Sequence record: OR844767
Reading direction: 5' to 3' (one strand)
Length of the DNA: 59,207 nucleotides
Origin: Escherichia phage ECO111 5-P
The notes under the pieces are model-generated. The model did not search any database. It had not been told where the DNA came from and saw nothing but the letters and a program-made list of their open reading frames with translations. Position numbers and translations under genes: made by a program. Within the stretch, counting starts at the first letter, position 1. The number at the start of each line of letters is the position of its first letter. Below are positions 7,073-11,299 of this stretch, one piece after another.

Positions 7073-7345
7073 TCAGATAAACGATTTTAACAGCACGTTA
7101 AGCATCGCATTCACGCGTACAGTGGCAACGGAAAGACGTGCGGCCCCGTCCATTTTGTACAGCGTCACACGGAAAGCGCGCGCCCGGTCATCCCACGTTA
7201 GATCCGCATCTGCCCGGATAAAAGTCACGCCATCCGCATGACGTTTAAAACCTTTTGCCCGTGCGATCCCGGCATACCGATCCGCCGCCATACGTGCAGC
7301 CGTTAAGCGTTGCGCCTTATCCATTGTGGGCCGCCTTGCGGTCAT
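7073..7345 (-). CDS. hypothetical protein
   Basis: 90-aa ORF, ATG at 7345; last gene of the minus-strand accessory operon. Confidence 0.45.
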   Translation of the reverse strand: MTARRPTMDKAQRLTAARMAADRYAGIARAKGFKRHADGVTFIRADADLTWDDRARAFRVTLYKMDGAARLSVATVRVNAMLNVLLKSFI

Positions 7346-7473
7346 TATTCACCGCCTCTTGATATACGTTTATAACGAGCGTATCCCGCCAGCCAGCCGC
7401 GATGGTACGCAATTGGATAAACGATGGCGCACATACTCACGCCAGCGATAAAGCCGCAAATAAATTCGTACAT
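7345..7473 (-). CDS. small hydrophobic protein (42 aa), hypothetical
   Basis: hand-translated MYEFICGFIAGVSMCAIVYPIAYHRGWLAGYARYKRISRGGE; ATG 7473 with GAGGTG RBS; exactly fills the gap between flanking genes with overlapping stop/start; below the track size cutoff. Confidence 0.3.
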   Translation of the reverse strand: MYEFICGFIAGVSMCAIVYPIAYHRGWLAGYARYKRISRGGE

Positions 7474-7695
7474 TTAACGCACCTCGTCGCCTCTTTTCTT
7501 GCCCCCTTCTACCGCCTCGCCACGGTCACAACGCGCGGAATACAGACCAATGCGGCCCGGATACGCCGCCACTGACGCGCGGCAATCGTCAAACGAGATC
7601 CCCGCGTCAATAACATAATCATGACAATCCGCCGCCATATTATCAGCGCCAACCGCGCCGCATATCGTCACAACGAAAAACCATAATCCCGCCAT
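7474..7695 (-). CDS. small putative secreted Cys-containing protein
   Basis: 73 aa; ATG 7695 with G-rich RBS; N-terminal hydrophobic signal-like segment MAGLWFFVVTICGAVGA; four Cys; ends ...GDEVR. Confidence 0.45.
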   Translation of the reverse strand: MAGLWFFVVTICGAVGADNMAADCHDYVIDAGISFDDCRASVAAYPGRIGLYSARCDRGEAVEGGKKRGDEVR

Positions 7696-7747
7696 AATTA
7701 CCGCCCCCGATCCAGATTAATGACATTAATACCCATTATGATGATCC

Positions 7748-8902
7748 TTATTTGATGAATTCGATTGATTTGATCTGCGACGTCGTGACGGCTTGCGCGT
7801 AAGTCTTATTTTCCAGCAAATCAAGGCGCATTAACCACGCGGAGCAAAACAGGCCGCTATCTGAAAAAATCACGTCTTCGGTTTTAGCGATCAACGTCAT
7901 TCCCGCAACGGTTTTAATCTTGATGCGGGTCGCCGTCTTGTCATTGTTGAGCGTGGCGGCCCCGGTCGCGGCATACGTCGCGCGGGCTTGCTTGATGTAT
8001 TGTTTCATGCAGCCGACGCGCACAACGTCGCGGACGTGTTCAACCGTGTTGACGTCGCGATCCAGTTCAATGACGGTATGAAATGCGCCATCAATGCAGC
8101 AGGACACGACAACGCGCACACGGAAAAGCTGATATTCTGCCGGGCTAATACGTGTCGTTATTTCGTAAAATTCGCCGTCGATTTTGTCGCGCAAGGTATG
8201 CAGCACGATCCCCGATGCGTTAACGTTTCCACGCTCAACGGCGGCGCAAGCGCGATCGACATAGTCGGCCGGGGCGGTCACATAGCCCGCTTTCACTTGC
8301 TTGATGAAATCGCTTTCCGGGTCATCCTTGCGGGCCTGTTCAAACGGCACATATTCGATCGGCGTGTCGTAAAGACTAACCATGTGAATATCAGGGCGCG
8401 CGTTGTAGATCTCCGCGTCTTCAAGGTCTAACATCCAGTAACCGCGCTTTAAATACACATATCCCCCCGCCGGATTGGTTGAGCGTAAAACATGATCAAC
8501 CGCGTCGGCGTTGGCGCTTGCCGCGTTTGATTCTGCATTCATCGCGATGATCTCCGCTTCGATTTCAGCGCGGGTAAAGTCGGAAAGGTTGAGGATGAAA
8601 TCATCTTCGAATCCGTGAACCTCAAAGAAAATCGCATCATTGCGGAGCTTTTGAGCGCGTGCGGCGGCTTCCTGTTCTGCGATTTCGTCGGCGGTTTTCA
8701 GTGTGCCGGAATGATCAAGCGCGCTTTCTAACACGTTTTCGAAATTGCTTTCGTATGACCACGCCCGCCAGATTAATGACCCGCCGTCCACCTCGCGGAT
8801 CTCGACTTGCGTCGAACCATATTTATCAAAGTTGTAAGACACGGCGCGATCGGCCTTGATGTTATATTTTCCAACCATTGCAACGATTTGATCGTGAGTC
8901 AT
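7748..8902 (-). CDS. hypothetical protein (384 aa)
   Basis: long ORF, ATG 8902; directly downstream of promoter element 8964-8993; no recognisable motif. Confidence 0.55.
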   Translation of the reverse strand: MTHDQIVAMVGKYNIKADRAVSYNFDKYGSTQVEIREVDGGSLIWRAWSYESNFENVLESALDHSGTLKTADEIAEQEAAARAQKLRNDAIFFEVHGFEDDFILNLSDFTRAEIEAEIIAMNAESNAASANADAVDHVLRSTNPAGGYVYLKRGYWMLDLEDAEIYNARPDIHMVSLYDTPIEYVPFEQARKDDPESDFIKQVKAGYVTAPADYVDRACAAVERGNVNASGIVLHTLRDKIDGEFYEITTRISPAEYQLFRVRVVVSCCIDGAFHTVIELDRDVNTVEHVRDVVRVGCMKQYIKQARATYAATGAATLNNDKTATRIKIKTVAGMTLIAKTEDVIFSDSGLFCSAWLMRLDLLENKTYAQAVTTSQIKSIEFIK

Positions 8903-8963
8903 TTTTATGTACCTGTTTTGATAACCGTTGGCCCCATTGCCCCCGGCCCCCGAAGGGAATTTA

Positions 8964-8993
8964 ATAATAGATGATATACGCGGCGTGCGTCAA
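8964..8993 (-). promoter_or_regulatory. sigma70-like promoter with embedded operator (minus-strand class, copy 1)
   Basis: minus strand TTGACG (8993..8988), 18-bp spacer CACGCCGCGTATATCATC, TATTAT (8969..8964); part of a 46-bp segment (8948-8993) identical to 11347-11392. Confidence 0.5.
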
Positions 8994-9027
8994 TAACTTT
9001 TCTCTTTAATCGTCGGCCGCGTCACCT

Positions 9028-9249
9028 TTACGGCCCGTCATCCCGTTTTAAAAGCGCGTCGCCTTCGTCCTGAGTCGGCCAAATCAGGCGCACGCATACG
9101 CCCCCGGCGACGGTATACAAAAACACTTTATACGGCCCGACGTTGTCGCCAAAAAACACGGCGGCCCCGATAAACGCCACGATCGCGCCGCACGCGGTGA
9201 ATTTTAAAGCGGCCCTTACGGCGTTCCCCGAAAATCCGGTTTTATTCAT
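9028..9249 (-). CDS. small membrane protein, hypothetical
   Basis: ATG 9249 overlaps stop of the upstream gene (ATGA); hydrophobic segment ACGAIVAFIGAAVFF; the track ORF extends to 9300 but the internal ATG fits gene packing. Confidence 0.45.
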   Translation of the reverse strand: MNKTGFSGNAVRAALKFTACGAIVAFIGAAVFFGDNVGPYKVFLYTVAGGVCVRLIWPTQDEGDALLKRDDGP

Positions 9250-9794: not shown

Positions 9795-9804
9795 TGTGAT
9801 CCCC

Positions 9805-10008
9805 TTATTCGGTTGAGCGGTTAGCAGGCCCGGCGCTCCATTTCGACCCGGCGCGATGTGCTACGATTTCGACGCTATAGCCGCAATTCAGGCGGCGGCT
9901 TACTTCCTTGTAACCGTGGCGCGTGGCGTAATTTTTCGCGCCCTTTTCCGTGGTTGACGTGTCGCAATGCGTACCGTTTGACATGATAACGCCATACATA
10001 TGACCCAT
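9805..10008 (-). CDS. hypothetical small protein
   Basis: 67 aa; ATG 10008 with GGGGG RBS. Confidence 0.35.
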   Translation of the reverse strand: MGHMYGVIMSNGTHCDTSTTEKGAKNYATRHGYKEVSRRLNCGYSVEIVAHRAGSKWSAGPANRSTE

Positions 10009-10019
10009 AGATCCCCCTG

Positions 10020-10643
10020 TTAGTTATAAATATCGCCGTTTTCAAAAAATTCCGGCTTGTCACCGTTTTCCAGTTCATCCCTTAAATATTCGTCACTTTC
10101 GCGGCTTTCCAGTTCGTCGAGCATATCCGAACAATAGCCGTCAATAGCTTCGCGTATCAGTTCCGCGATCGTGCGGTTATCCGGCTTTTTCAGGAAGTCA
10201 CGAAAAGGCTTCAATAACGATTCGTCATAGCATACGCCTGTATACGGGCAATCATCTGACGCGTTGAACACCCCGCTAACCCATTTAATGAAGGACGCCT
10301 TTTTATTAAAACCGTGGTCATTGACTTCCCGGTATTCTCGATAAACGCGGCGACGCATATTAAACGCATTGACATTATTAATGATCCACTTGTACGCACG
10401 CACGCCGGATAAATCTTCCACATCTGAACTATGATTGAGTTCGTAGCGAACATCGCAACCGCCCAGACCGTATGACCAGTCGCGCACCTCGACGCATAGA
10501 TCATCACAAAATGCACGAAGGCTTTCTTTGTATTCTGAAAAGTCGAATTGATCGCCGCTCTTATATTGGCGGTAATTTTCGATCGCTTTCGCTTTCGCGA
10601 CGTCTGACAGTTCATTAAAAGTATAAAGTGAAATAGTACGCAT
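10020..10643 (-). CDS. hypothetical acidic protein (207 aa)
   Basis: ATG 10643 with AAGGGG RBS; Cys/Asp/Glu-rich; no confident family assignment. Confidence 0.5.
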   Translation of the reverse strand: MRTISLYTFNELSDVAKAKAIENYRQYKSGDQFDFSEYKESLRAFCDDLCVEVRDWSYGLGGCDVRYELNHSSDVEDLSGVRAYKWIINNVNAFNMRRRVYREYREVNDHGFNKKASFIKWVSGVFNASDDCPYTGVCYDESLLKPFRDFLKKPDNRTIAELIREAIDGYCSDMLDELESRESDEYLRDELENGDKPEFFENGDIYN

Positions 10644-10645
10644 GG

Positions 10646-10846
10646 TTAAGCCCCTTGTAACAGAAGAGTGAAAAAATTATTTGAACAGCCGATCAAACGG
10701 CCCGTTTTACGCTCGCGTAAATAAAACGTTTTGCGCCCGAAAGAATAACGGCGCTCAACCTTACAGCGACGCCATACCGCCCGCGCGTCACGATATATAA
10801 CAGCCGCAATTATTGAGTAACCGATCAAGATAATAGCCATTAACAT
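10646..10846 (-). CDS. small membrane protein, hypothetical
   Basis: 66 aa; ATG 10846 with GGGGG RBS; N-terminal transmembrane-like MLMAIILIGYSIIAAVIY. Confidence 0.4.
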   Translation of the reverse strand: MLMAIILIGYSIIAAVIYRDARAVWRRCKVERRYSFGRKTFYLRERKTGRLIGCSNNFFTLLLQGA

Positions 10847-10864
10847 GACGCGCCCCCGGATTAA

Positions 10865-11299
10865 TTAGATTTCAAAGATAAACCAGCCGATAGTTTCGCC
10901 ACGGCGGCGACCTTTGGCGATATACTCACGCTCGATATTCAGGCCGATTAATTCCGCGATACGCAAAACACAATCCAGGCCGCACGCGCCATCGATATAA
11001 ATGCGATCATCCTTCTCATGGTAACGCATACCGTACAAGGAATCCGGATTGTTAGCGGGATAGGGTGCGCCGTCTATCGGGAATACATGAGAGGCGCGAT
11101 CCTTAATAGTCAAAAGGCGCTGCTGGTAATTAGCACATAGCCATTCTGCAAACACGGTGCCAACCATATCATACCCGCCGCCCATACATTTAAAACGCTC
11201 CCCCTTGTTTCGGTCATCCAGGCGGCAAATATTATATCCGTACGTTTCGCGCCCTTTTGAAGTAGACCAGGACAAAGAAAGATGATTGATAGTTTTCAT
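10865..11299 (-). CDS. hypothetical protein (144 aa)
   Basis: ATG 11299 with GAGGCG RBS; first gene downstream of promoter element 11363-11392. Confidence 0.5.
   Translation of the reverse strand: MKTINHLSLSWSTSKGRETYGYNICRLDDRNKGERFKCMGGGYDMVGTVFAEWLCANYQQRLLTIKDRASHVFPIDGAPYPANNPDSLYGMRYHEKDDRIYIDGACGLDCVLRIAELIGLNIEREYIAKGRRRGETIGWFIFEI

What the first reader, a model, noticed from the sequence alone, without database searches (positions are those of the whole stretch)
7073..11299. Minus-strand accessory operon of about ten unknown genes, including several small membrane or secreted proteins
Genes 10865-11299, 10646-10846, 10020-10643, 9805-10008, 9246-9794, 9028-9249, 7748-8902, 7474-7695, 7345-7473 and 7073-7345 are tightly packed with overlapping stops and starts, driven by the two identical promoter elements and ended by the terminator at 6976-7003. 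None carries a motif I can recognise. Early accessory clusters like this are where host-takeover, anti-defence and superinfection-exclusion functions usually sit.
Basis: inference. Interest (0 to 1): 0.6.

Follow-up and report, generated by a model that had tools for sequence, protein, structure and literature searches.

The report
Early accessory operon of Chi-like phage
This is the block of ten small, uncharacterised, non-structural genes next to the cohesive end of a Chi-like Salmonella phage; it is real and probably expressed first after infection, but it is an ordinary, already-sequenced kind of phage "dark matter" whose functions remain untested.

Summary
All ten minus-strand ORFs exist at the stated coordinates, with Shine-Dalgarno sites and gaps of -4 to +52 nt apart from one 125-nt gap that holds the second promoter. 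Most genes have dN/dS of 0.1-0.25. Two copies of a 57-nt promoter/5'UTR cassette (TTGACG-18-TATTAT) drive the genes, and a strong intrinsic terminator lies at 6975-7006.

The window is a complete, circularly permuted Chivirus genome. The block corresponds to phage Chi genes 64-75 and ends about 440 nt before the cohesive end (6521-6532). Seven genes form a conserved backbone; three (144, 207 and 42 aa) are swap-in cassettes.

The block occupies the same position as gp01-gp13 of the related Serratia phage JS26. That block is first-injected, expressed by 5 min and, except for gp10, dispensable.

No known defence, anti-defence, structural or metabolic family matches. The leads are:
- a T5 pre-early T5.014-like protein (90 aa);
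- a DUF905-like N-domain (384 aa);
- a large family with no Pfam match and weak resemblance to the RNase H-like fold (144 aa);
- four small membrane or secreted proteins.

"Early accessory" is supported; the specific roles are not. Interest is modest.

The parts
11336..11392 (-). Promoter P1 plus 5'UTR cassette. -35 TTGACG at 11392-11387 and -10 TATTAT at 11368-11363. The spacer carries the 19-nt motif ACGCACGCCGCGTATATCA. The transcript starts with a CCC-UUCG-GGG hairpin.
   Evidence: (D4); the exact 19-mer lies at the same place in other Chiviruses
10865..11299 (-). 144-aa soluble protein, the first gene after P1. It is a swap-in cassette that replaces Chi gp64+gp65. It belongs to a large uncharacterised family with motifs S-x-G-R-D-T-Y-G-Y-N, GGGYDMxGT, LYG and DGACG. 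The AlphaFold model (pLDDT 93) resembles the RNase H-like fold only weakly.
10646..10846 (-). 66-aa protein with an N-terminal transmembrane helix and a basic tail (Chi gp66). It is a backbone gene and is 74% identical in Klebsiella phage Seifer.
10020..10643 (-). 207-aa acidic soluble protein. It is a swap-in cassette: Chi and Season12 carry the unrelated 160-aa gp67 here. It has invariant E11, L12, G80, R82, N89, S123, C132, G136, V137, D140, F199 and G203, and no fold match in the PDB.
9805..10008 (-). 67-aa basic soluble protein (Chi gp68), absent from some Chiviruses.
9246..9794 (-). 182-aa acidic protein (Chi gp69). Its N-terminal ~75 residues form a separate domain (phrog_4781) that is also found in Klebsiella phages.
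9028..9249 (-). 73-aa protein with two predicted transmembrane helices (Chi gp70). It is a backbone gene with relatives in Klebsiella phages.
8937..8993 (-). Promoter P2 plus 5'UTR cassette, a second copy of the P1 cassette (91% identical over 57 nt). It lies in the 125-nt gap upstream of the 384-aa gene.
7748..8902 (-). 384-aa acidic protein (Chi gp71). Residues ~25-68 form a DUF905/YkfF-like domain. The C-terminal ~150 residues correspond to phrog_18953, which stands alone in Klebsiella phages. The full-length protein occurs only in Salmonella Chiviruses.
7474..7695 (-). 73-aa protein (Chi gp73) with an N-terminal hydrophobic, signal-peptide-like segment followed by a Cys-containing acidic region. 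It is probably exported.
7345..7473 (-). 42-aa ORF with one transmembrane helix and a basic tail. It is a swap-in cassette, found elsewhere among the loci examined only in phage Salmp-p7. Its coding status is weakly supported.
7073..7345 (-). 90-aa basic protein (Chi gp75), the last gene. It is a probable homologue of the T5 pre-early (first-step-transfer) protein T5.014.
6975..7006 (-). Intrinsic terminator that ends the operon.
6770..6968 (+). Array of four copies of the 19-nt promoter-spacer motif, inverted relative to the promoters, lying between the terminator and the cohesive end. It is a candidate binding array for the factor that recognises P1 and P2.
6521..6532 (.). Cohesive-end site (GCTCTGCGCACC). 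The deposited linear ends of Chi and iEPS5 map here.

Best explanation
The region is the cos-proximal early operon of a Chi-like siphovirus, equivalent to phage Chi genes 64-75.

How it is transcribed. Host sigma-70 RNA polymerase starts at two copies of one promoter/5'UTR cassette: P1 at 11392 and P2 at 8993. It reads leftwards through ten tightly coupled genes and stops at an intrinsic terminator about 440 nt before the cohesive end.

How it is probably regulated. The promoters share a phage-specific spacer element (TTGAC-R-YACGYCGCGT-RTA) with three other promoters, at least the first of which heads the recombination genes. The operon is therefore probably switched on with them immediately after DNA entry. 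It is probably switched off later by a phage DNA-binding protein that recognises this element.

What it encodes. The products are non-structural. There are four small inner-membrane or exported proteins and six soluble proteins. Seven genes are a backbone conserved in Salmonella Chiviruses. Three positions hold interchangeable cassettes.

Most likely role. These are a set of (mostly) dispensable host-interaction factors that act in the first minutes of infection. The membrane and exported proteins would act on the envelope, for example by superinfection exclusion or envelope remodelling. The soluble proteins would bind or modify host components or defences.

Shown: gene structure, promoters, terminator, conservation, mosaicism, and the absence of known structural, metabolic or defence domains.
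Inferred: early timing, dispensability and first-injected position (from JS26), and all biochemical roles.
For: Genome identity. The window is 94% identical to iEPS5, SPN19 and PMBT21, and the genes map onto Chi gp66, gp68-71, gp73 and gp75.

Genes are real. Ribosome-binding sites precede most starts, spacing is tight and dN/dS is about 0.1-0.25.

Transcription signals. Promoters and terminator. The promoter family has 10 motif copies against 0.09 expected, all within 5.9-20.6 kb, the early/DNA-metabolism part of the genome.

Mosaic slots. The 144-aa gene is in 42 phage records, the 207-aa gene in 34 and the 384-aa gene in 130. Alternative cassettes sit in the same slots in Chi and Season12, and these are also of unknown function.

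Position. Cos is at 6521-6532.

JS26 parallel. JS26 has the same layout: 13 minus-strand genes next to the cos end, divergent from plus-strand genes. Its gp09 is 63% identical to Chi gp67. JS26 gp01-14 are the early RNA-seq cluster. gp01-13 are small, non-essential except gp10, and lie in the first-injected region (bioRxiv 10.64898/2025.12.19.695335).

Not structural. Virion mass spectrometry of the related phages PIN1 and PIN2 lists no product that can be assigned to this block (PMC12264135).

Context elsewhere. The 90-aa protein resembles T5.014, a gene in T5's first-step-transfer DNA. The 144-aa family sits in long arrays of small unknown genes at the contig end (where it could be judged) in other large phage contigs.
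Against: There are no expression, essentiality or phenotype data for this phage or for any Chivirus.

The link to JS26 rests on position plus a single shared cassette, and that cassette is not present in this window. None of the ten proteins has a detectable JS26 homologue.

Four to five backbone proteins are conserved across genera under purifying selection. That is more than expected for freely exchangeable anti-defence cargo, and one gene of the JS26 block is essential.

No protein matches a known anti-defence, defence or exclusion family.

A Chivirus (LuPh5) is fully sensitive to EcoRI and partly sensitive to AbiK, so the genus does not carry broad anti-restriction (PMC12671086).
Confidence: 0.6

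Rival explanations
1. Some or all of the conserved backbone genes (66, 182, 73, 384, 73 and 90 aa) are not accessory. They would be required parts of the lytic programme, for example regulators of the early-to-middle switch, helpers of DNA entry or circularisation, or replication-start factors.
For: The backbone is 88-100% identical across Salmonella Chiviruses. Four to five members have relatives at 46-74% identity in Klebsiella Yonseivirus, with dN/dS of 0.1-0.4. JS26 gp10, inside the syntenic early block, is essential. The block lies next to cos and next to an iteron-like non-coding region.
Against: Twelve of the 13 genes in the syntenic JS26 block tolerate transposon insertions. No backbone protein has a DNA-binding, replication or regulatory domain. 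The gp68-type gene is missing from several viable phages.
Confidence: 0.2
2. The 90-aa last gene is an Ung-dependent AP-site endonuclease that nicks host DNA, as the PHROG and RefSeq label of its T5 relative states. On this reading the operon is chiefly a host-DNA shut-off module.
For: phrog_4227 is hit at E = 1.5e-4. BLASTP gives 41% identity over 56 residues to the T5-type 70-aa protein, and hhalign gives E = 9e-5. RefSeq names T5.014 in this way.
Against: Mahata et al. (PMC8201957) studied 'T5.015'. They also list T5.014 as separately cloned, and it was not among the three toxic genes. The numbers they omit (001, 004, 006, 010) are exactly the known-function locus tags of NC_005859. Their protein is therefore most likely the neighbouring 114-aa T5.015, and the label on the 70-aa family is probably an off-by-one transfer. 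The 90-aa protein shows no similarity to T5.015 in a local phmmer search. The homology itself is only moderately supported (hhalign probability 59%).
Confidence: 0.1
3. The 384-aa protein, and hence part of the block, is a tail or other virion component, as the labels 'tail protein' (phrog_18953) and 'tail component K-like protein' suggest.
For: phrog_18953 matches residues 156-384 at E = 7e-99. Some GenBank records use tail-related names.
Against: The names come from records with evidently unreliable similarity-based labels. In phage 35 a frameshifted gene is split in two, and its neighbours are called 'terminase' and 'head outer capsid protein' at 80-90 aa. The protein has no NlpC/P60, JAB or other tail domain. 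The gene lies about 16 kb from the structural module, on the far side of the early plus-strand genes. No such product appears in the PIN1/PIN2 virion proteomes. Other records call the same protein 'Cro/CI-type repressor' or 'capsid maturation protease', which shows the labels are noise.
Confidence: 0.03
4. The block is a phage-borne defence or toxin-antitoxin island that protects the infected cell against competing phages by abortive mechanisms, rather than acting on the host.
For: It encodes small membrane proteins and small basic proteins. The 67-aa protein has a faint AbiEi hit (E = 0.006, 14 bits).
Against: There is no significant PADLOC or Pfam match for any protein. The phage is strictly lytic, so a long-term defence island has little time to act. 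Simple superinfection exclusion is already included in the best explanation.
Confidence: 0.07

Closest known systems
Phage Chi right-end genes gp63-gp75 (KM458633) and their counterparts in iEPS5, SPN19, PMBT21 and Season12
   Same: The order, strand and promoters (exact 19-mer) are the same, as are the terminator position and the distance to cos. Seven proteins are 88-100% identical.
   Different: This phage carries the 144-aa cassette instead of gp64+gp65. It carries the 207-aa cassette instead of gp67, as iEPS5 and PMBT21 do. It lacks gp72 and has a 42-aa ORF instead of gp74. All of these genes are annotated only as hypothetical proteins.
Early block gp01-gp13 of Serratia phage JS26 (Casjensviridae, Dunedinvirus)
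   Same: Both are cos-adjacent minus-strand arrays of 10-13 small genes, divergent from the plus-strand early/middle genes, and both include small membrane proteins. JS26 gp09 is homologous to Chi gp67, which occupies slot 2 of this operon in other Chiviruses.
   Different: None of the ten proteins in this window has a detectable JS26 homologue. The promoter motif was not found in JS26. Early timing, first injection and dispensability are measured for JS26 only.
Pre-early (first-step-transfer) genes of phage T5
   Same: Both are the first DNA to enter the cell. Both are arrays of small genes of mostly unknown function, including two-TM mini-proteins. The 90-aa protein resembles T5.014.
   Different: T5 uses a two-step DNA transfer with a terminal repeat, and A1/A2 proteins that have no counterpart here. 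Only one gene is shared, and that link is weak.
DUF905 (PF06006; E. coli YkfF, PDB 2HJJ)
   Same: Residues ~25-68 of the 384-aa protein align with the C-terminal half of DUF905. Five of seven partial relatives reach Pfam's gathering score.
   Different: The window protein itself scores 14.5 bits against a cut-off of 22.3. DUF905 proteins are ~70-90 aa stand-alone proteins of prophages and islands, whereas here the domain heads a 384-aa protein. The function of DUF905 is unknown.
RNase H-like fold superfamily (retroviral integrase core, PIWI, RNase H1, NurA)

Membership tests
Chivirus cos-proximal operon (Chi gp63-gp75 block) | Same gene order and strand, with backbone proteins at least 88% identical | tested here: met
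   tblastn matrix and synteny maps against 13 loci; Chi annotation
Chivirus cos-proximal operon (Chi gp63-gp75 block) | Conserved promoter 19-mer upstream of the first gene and of the gp71-type gene, and the block ending a few hundred nt from cos | tested here: met
   The exact 19-mer lies at the equivalent positions in PMBT21, iEPS5, BP12C, Salmp-p7 and phage 35 (both promoters) and in ER6 and Chi (one exact promoter copy). Cos is at 6521-6532.
Casjensviridae first-injected early block (JS26 gp01-gp13) | Position next to the cos end, on the strand reading towards the end, divergent from the next operon | tested here: met
Casjensviridae first-injected early block (JS26 gp01-gp13) | Shared gene content | tested here: inconclusive
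   Only Chi gp67 matches JS26 gp09 (63% identity). No protein of this window matches.
Casjensviridae first-injected early block (JS26 gp01-gp13) | Expression by 5 min, dispensability, first DNA to enter | not testable with these tools
   Known for JS26 only (bioRxiv 10.64898/2025.12.19.695335).
T5.014 family (phrog_4227) | Significant sequence or profile similarity over the core (A-R/K-x-K-G-F-K ... F-R-V-T) | tested here: met
   hmmscan E = 1.5e-4; BLASTP 41% over 56 aa with pairwise E = 1e-8; hhalign E = 9e-5 but probability only 59%
T5.014 family (phrog_4227) | Ung binding and AP-site nicking (the activity in the family's label) | not testable with these tools
   The label probably belongs to the neighbouring gene T5.015.
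DUF905 (PF06006) | Score at or above Pfam's gathering threshold (22.3 bits) | tested here: not met
   The window protein scores 14.5 bits, E = 0.036. Partial relatives P0234-P0238 score 22.4-24.6 bits, so membership is transitive only.
RNase H-like nucleases/transposases | Fold match with a convincing score | tested here: inconclusive
RNase H-like nucleases/transposases | Conserved catalytic carboxylates (DDE/DEDD), the first on strand 1 | tested here: not met
   Strand 1 (residues 4-14) has conserved L7, S10, W11 and S14 but no acidic residue. The only invariant or near-invariant acidic residues across the family are D44 and D103.
Known anti-phage defence systems (PADLOC-DB) | Significant match to a curated model | tested here: not met
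   PADLOC: only a 14-bit AbiEi hit for the 67-aa protein.
Pfam-curated protein families (which to my knowledge include several anti-restriction/anti-defence families such as Ocr, ArdA, KlcA/ArdB) | Significant match to a curated model | tested here: not met
   Nothing significant for any of the ten proteins in Pfam or NCBIfam.
Lambda gpK-type tail protein | NlpC/P60 and/or JAB/MPN domain, and a location in the tail module | tested here: not met
   No such Pfam domain. The gene is outside the structural module.
Sigma-70 promoter / intrinsic terminator | Near-consensus hexamers with 16-18 nt spacing; GC-rich hairpin followed by a U-run | tested here: met
   10 of 12 matches with an 18-nt spacer, twice; hairpin at -17.4 kcal/mol plus UUUUUUAUU

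The most novel reading that the evidence does not exclude
The 144-aa first gene would be the founding member of an undescribed enzyme family. The family has at least 712 clusters at 50% identity. It occurs in unrelated phages of Enterobacteria, Aeromonas, Pseudomonas and Acinetobacter, and in contigs binned to (MAGs) or assembled from many bacterial phyla. It has no Pfam, NCBIfam or PHROG model. Its core resembles the RNase H-like fold, and its invariant glycine-rich loops with S14, D44 and D103 would bind a nucleotide or nucleic-acid ligand. 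On this reading the phage makes it first in order to destroy or sequester a host immune signal or nucleic acid.

A second, independent possibility concerns regulation. The 19-nt element is shared by both promoters and by a four-copy array beside cos. It could let one DNA-binding protein, either the neighbouring HTH protein or the small terminase, couple early-gene shut-off to genome-end recognition.
Probability: 0.2. Interest if true: 0.65.

Novelty: new member of a known kind. Interest (0 to 1): 0.32.

Why it matters
Chi-like phages are candidate biocontrol and therapy agents against Salmonella, and they are now entering defence-system screening panels. Knowing which genes are the first-expressed, probably dispensable block tells engineers where cargo can be inserted. 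It also tells defence and counter-defence researchers which ten proteins to test first.

The analysis gives three concrete, testable leads:
- a very widespread 144-aa family not covered by Pfam, NCBIfam or PHROGs v4;
- a T5.014-like pre-early protein;
- a shared promoter/operator element.

It also flags two annotation errors that are spreading through databases: the 'tail protein' label of phrog_18953, and the probable off-by-one 'Ung-dependent endonuclease' label on T5.014 and phrog_4227.

Beyond that the finding is ordinary. Blocks of small unknown early genes next to a genome end are the rule in lytic phages.

Tried and rejected
Searches that found nothing useful:
- Pfam, NCBIfam and PADLOC scans of all ten proteins gave nothing significant.
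- PDB sequence searches with single proteins and with family profiles gave nothing.
- Pfam scans of 44 close and 58 distant members of the 144-aa family, and of ten longer fused members, gave only an unrelated DUF7447 fusion.
- The 144-aa protein had no match in the plasmid collection. This rejects my recollection that it is a plasmid leading-region gene.
- An Rfam scan of 5500-12300 found nothing.
- phmmer of the operon proteins and the Chi alternative cassettes against all T5 pre-early proteins gave no further links.
- The alternative cassettes of Chi, Seifer and SLP-22 were scanned in case a known anti-defence gene occupies the same slot. All are of unknown function.
- The 42-aa ORF does not convincingly align with the 41-aa TM ORFs of Klebsiella phages.
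- Literature searches for Chivirus/Casjensviridae plus anti-defence, for DUF905 and for the GGGYDM motif gave no functional data on these genes.

Limits reached:
The 384-aa protein would in any case have had a shallow alignment, because full-length relatives are all more than 91% identical.

Full report
**What the window is.** The 59,207-bp window is a complete, circularly permuted genome of a Chi-like siphovirus (genus Chivirus, family Casjensviridae).
- The stretch 6900-11700 is about 94% identical to iEPS5, SPN19, PMBT21, TS13 and others. It matches 116 phage records.
- One protein of the region is found 100% identical on an NCBI contig of exactly 59,207 bp.
- The deposited linear ends of Chi and iEPS5 map to GCTCTGCGCACC at 6521-6532, so that is the cohesive-end site.
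- To the left of cos lie an HTH_37 protein, a primase-polymerase/helicase, a PD-(D/E)XK nuclease, an Enc34-type ssDNA-binding protein and a family A DNA polymerase.
- To the right, beyond the finding, a plus-strand operon begins at 12029 and includes an RdgC-like protein.

**Check of the observation.**
- All ten minus-strand ORFs are present as described.
- Eight of the ten starts are preceded by a GGGGG/GAGG-type Shine-Dalgarno sequence; 9249 and 8902 are not.
- Gaps between genes are 18, 2, 11, 10, -4, 125, 52, 0 and -1 nt.
- Nei-Gojobori comparisons with eight Chiviruses and two more distant relatives give dN/dS of about 0.1-0.25 for nearly every gene. These are protein-coding genes under purifying selection.
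- The 67-aa gene is informative only against a divergent contig (0.15). The 42-aa ORF has a single comparison, with no non-synonymous change.
- The 'two identical promoter elements' are a 57-nt direct repeat (8937-8993 and 11336-11392, 91% identical). Each contains TTGACG, an 18-nt spacer and TATTAT on the minus strand.
- The terminator is a perfect 11-bp GC-rich hairpin followed by UUUUUUAUU at 7006-6975 (-17.4 kcal/mol).
- Nothing terminator-like lies between the sixth gene and the second promoter. P2 is therefore an internal booster within one long unit rather than the start of an insulated second operon.
- Both transcripts would begin with the same CCC-UUCG-GGG hairpin. By analogy with known 5'-terminal stem-loops, this may stabilise the mRNA (inference).

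**Correspondence to phage Chi and mosaic structure.**
- Against the Hendrix-lab Chi record, the genes correspond to gp66 (66 aa), gp68 (67 aa), gp69 (182 aa), gp70 (73 aa), gp71 (384 aa), gp73 (73 aa) and gp75 (90 aa). They are 88-100% identical across Salmonella Chiviruses.
- Three positions differ between phages.
  - The promoter-proximal slot holds the 144-aa gene here and in Season12 and FSL SP-030. It holds gp64+gp65 in Chi, iEPS5 and PMBT21.
  - The second slot holds the 207-aa gene here and in iEPS5, PMBT21, BP12C, ER6 and Salmp-p7. It holds the unrelated 160-aa gp67 in Chi and Season12.
  - The distal part lacks gp72 and has a 42-aa ORF where Chi has gp74.
- In the phage collection the 144-aa gene occurs in 42 records, the 207-aa gene in 34, the 384-aa gene in 130 and the 90-aa gene in 133.
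- Relatives of the 66-, 73-(TM), 73-(signal) and 90-aa proteins, and of the N-terminal domain of the 182-aa protein, persist at 46-74% identity in Klebsiella phage Seifer, which belongs to another genus.
- The block is therefore a conserved backbone with exchangeable cassettes, not a purely variable island.
- Every public record calls these genes hypothetical. The occasional names ('terminase large subunit' for an 86-aa ORF, 'head outer capsid protein', 'tail component K-like', 'capsid maturation protease', 'Cro/CI-type repressor') contradict one another and are unreliable.

**What the individual proteins are.**
- *General result.* Pfam, NCBIfam and PADLOC give no significant hit. PHROGs places eight of the ten in families of unknown function.
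- *Membrane or exported proteins.* Four products are small hydrophobic proteins.
  - The 66-aa protein has an N-terminal TM helix and a basic tail.
  - The 73-aa protein at 9028-9249 has two TM helices.
  - The 73-aa protein at 7474-7695 has a signal-peptide-like N-terminus and cysteines.
  - The 42-aa ORF has one TM helix.
  - Their Klebsiella counterparts are annotated as TMD proteins.
- *144-aa protein.*
  - It has more than 422 close relatives at 52-89% identity. A profile search finds 712 clusters at 50% identity, 481 of them below E = 1e-10.
  - The family occurs in Chi-like phages, 124-kb Aeromonas phages, Pseudomonas phiK7A1 and Acinetobacter phages.
  - It also occurs on contigs binned to (MAGs) or assembled from Actinomycetota, Victivallales, Bryobacterales, Planctomycetes and others. 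It is absent from plasmids.
  - No member, close or distant, hits Pfam, and the PDB holds no sequence relative.
  - The invariant positions across the family are S14, G21, G40, G42, D44, G47, G104, G107 and G119.
  - The AlphaFold model is confident (pLDDT 93, pTM 0.86).
  - The canonical first-strand carboxylate is missing, so I do not file it as a nuclease.
  - In other large phage contigs the gene lies in long arrays of small unknown genes (at the contig end where that could be judged).
- *384-aa protein.*
  - The full-length protein is confined to Salmonella Chiviruses (more than 91% identical).
  - Its N-terminal ~70-110 residues are shared with Klebsiella-phage proteins. Five of seven such relatives reach Pfam's threshold for DUF905, the YkfF family (PDB 2HJJ) of unknown function.
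  - Its C-terminal ~150 residues correspond to phrog_18953, which stands alone as a 155-aa protein at the same position in Seifer.
- *90-aa protein.*
  - It matches phrog_4227 (E = 1.5e-4). It aligns with the 70-aa T5-type protein at 41% identity over 56 residues. hhalign gives E = 9e-5 with probability 59%.
  - That T5 gene is T5.014 in the first-step-transfer DNA.

**A caution on the T5 label.**
- RefSeq and PHROGs call T5.014 'endonuclease nicking abasic sites generated by host uracil glycosylase Ung'. The paper behind that name (PMC8201957) studied 'T5.015'.
- The paper lists T5.014 among 13 separately cloned genes, of which only 008, 011 and 015 were toxic.
- The numbers the authors omitted (001, 004, 006, 010) are exactly the NC_005859 locus tags with known functions: dmp, A1, A2 and HNH. 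They therefore used that numbering, in which T5.015 is the adjacent 114-aa ORF.
- The label on the 70-aa family is most likely an off-by-one transfer. I did not carry the function over to the 90-aa protein.
- What does carry over is context: its only outside relative is a pre-early gene in the first DNA that T5 injects.

**Regulation.**
- The 19-nt core of the promoter spacer (ACGCACGCCGCGTATATCA) occurs six times in the window, against none expected. It occurs once in each promoter. Four further copies, in inverted orientation, lie at 6770-6968 between the terminator and cos.
- A looser form, TTGAYRYACGYCGYGTATAT, occurs ten times against 0.09 expected. The extra copies are good promoters on the plus strand at 11988 (the divergent operon), 15303 and 20595. 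One more lies at 5987, about 16 nt upstream of the start codon of the HTH_37 gene.
- The exact 19-mer is kept at the equivalent places in other Salmonella Chiviruses.
- The operon therefore belongs to one promoter class, together with the promoters at 11988, 15303 and 20595 in the early part of the genome (the first heads the operon with the RdgC-like gene). The conserved spacer looks like an operator.
- Which protein binds it is not known. The neighbouring HTH protein and, given the array beside cos, the small terminase are the candidates (inference).

**Evidence from a relative.**
- A 2025 preprint applied transposon sequencing, RNA-seq and proteomics to Serratia phage JS26, a member of the same family (bioRxiv 10.64898/2025.12.19.695335).
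- JS26 gp01-gp14 form the early expression cluster (5 min). gp01-gp13 are small and non-essential except gp10. They form an insertion hot spot, which the authors attribute to this being the first-injected part of a cos genome. The authors suggest anti-defence or host-manipulation roles.
- The JS26 record shows 13 minus-strand genes at 752-6314 next to the genome end, divergent from plus-strand genes. This is the same layout as here.
- JS26 gp09 is 63% identical to Chi gp67, the cassette that occupies slot 2 of this operon in Chi.
- None of this window's ten proteins has a JS26 homologue. The transfer of 'early, first-in, dispensable' therefore rests on position and organisation, not on orthology of these genes.
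- Virion proteomes of the related Klebsiella phages PIN1 and PIN2 list no product assignable to this block. The paper's gene numbering differs from GenBank's, so this is an inference (PMC12264135).

**Verdict.**
- The finding is real and correctly delimited. I put about 0.6 on 'early, non-structural, mostly dispensable host-interaction genes'.
- A Chivirus tested elsewhere is fully sensitive to EcoRI (PMC12671086).
- The main rival, at about 0.2, is that some conserved backbone genes are required parts of the lytic programme.
- As a kind of thing this is well known, and the sequences are already in more than 100 database records. It is a new member of a known kind, of modest interest.
- The parts most worth following up are the 144-aa family and the shared promoter/operator element.

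Noticed in passing
window 6770-6968 (+), with related copies at 8972-8990 (-) and 11371-11389 (-): Four copies of the 19-nt promoter-spacer motif ACGCACGCCGCGTATATCA (three exact, one with 3 mismatches) lie 48-73 nt apart in the non-coding stretch between the operon terminator and cos, inverted relative to the promoters. Three of them lack a -35 TTG and none has a -10, so they look like binding sites rather than promoters. They are conserved in other Chiviruses. They could be a regulator sink or cosB-like terminase sites.
   Followed up: partly
window 5987, 11988, 15303, 20595 (+ strand): There is a family of sigma-70-type promoters with the conserved spacer TTGAC-R-YACGYCGCGT-RTA. In all there are 10 motif copies against 0.09 expected, all within 5.9-20.6 kb. 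The copy at 5987 sits about 16 nt upstream of the start of the minus-strand HTH_37 gene (5645-5971), which suggests an autoregulated repressor and its operator.
   Followed up: partly
window 11400-11940: The 730-nt divergent intergenic region is conserved with Chi at the nucleotide level (81% overall). A 1-bp indel shifts the frame of Chi 'gp63', so that annotated gene is probably not coding. The region carries 4-6 iteron-like repeats (consensus about CCGGGTAACTTTTTCAAGTAAGCC; four detected at 11695-11937). It is possibly an origin or a regulatory array.
   Followed up: partly
L021 (NC_005859 8086-8644); phrog_4227: RefSeq puts the product name 'endonuclease nicking abasic sites generated by host uracil glycosylase Ung' on T5.014 (70 aa). 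The source paper studied T5.015 and used NC_005859 numbering, in which T5.015 is the adjacent 114-aa ORF. This is a probable off-by-one annotation that has spread to PHROGs and to other T5-like genomes.
   Followed up: partly
phrog_18953; L002 (phage 35) 1532-2684; L010 (Seifer) 7256-7723: The 'tail protein' label of phrog_18953, and the 'tail component K-like' names in some records, attach to fragments or domains of the gp71-type early protein. In phage 35 the gene is split by a frameshift. No tail-related domain is present. The C-terminal domain stands alone as a 155-aa protein in Klebsiella phages.
   Followed up: partly
window 6040-6290: An AT-rich non-coding stretch upstream of the HTH gene holds several copies of GGTTACAAG/CTTGTAACC in both orientations (for example 6091-6114 and 6251-6274). 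It may be a second set of operator-like sites.
   Followed up: no
phage collection records OR847699, OR849326, OR848842 ('Listeria phage'), OR844956/OR844960 ('Enterococcus phage'), GU169904 ('Staphylococcus phage SA1'): Records named for Gram-positive hosts contain Chi-like sequence that is 90-100% identical to this operon. They are most likely contaminated or chimeric assemblies, so host labels in these records should not be trusted.
   Followed up: no
window 6521-6532: The cohesive-end sequence GCTCTGCGCACC was located by mapping the deposited ends of Chi and iEPS5. The window is a circular permutation of the mature genome, with the operon at the physical right end in Chi orientation.
   Followed up: yes
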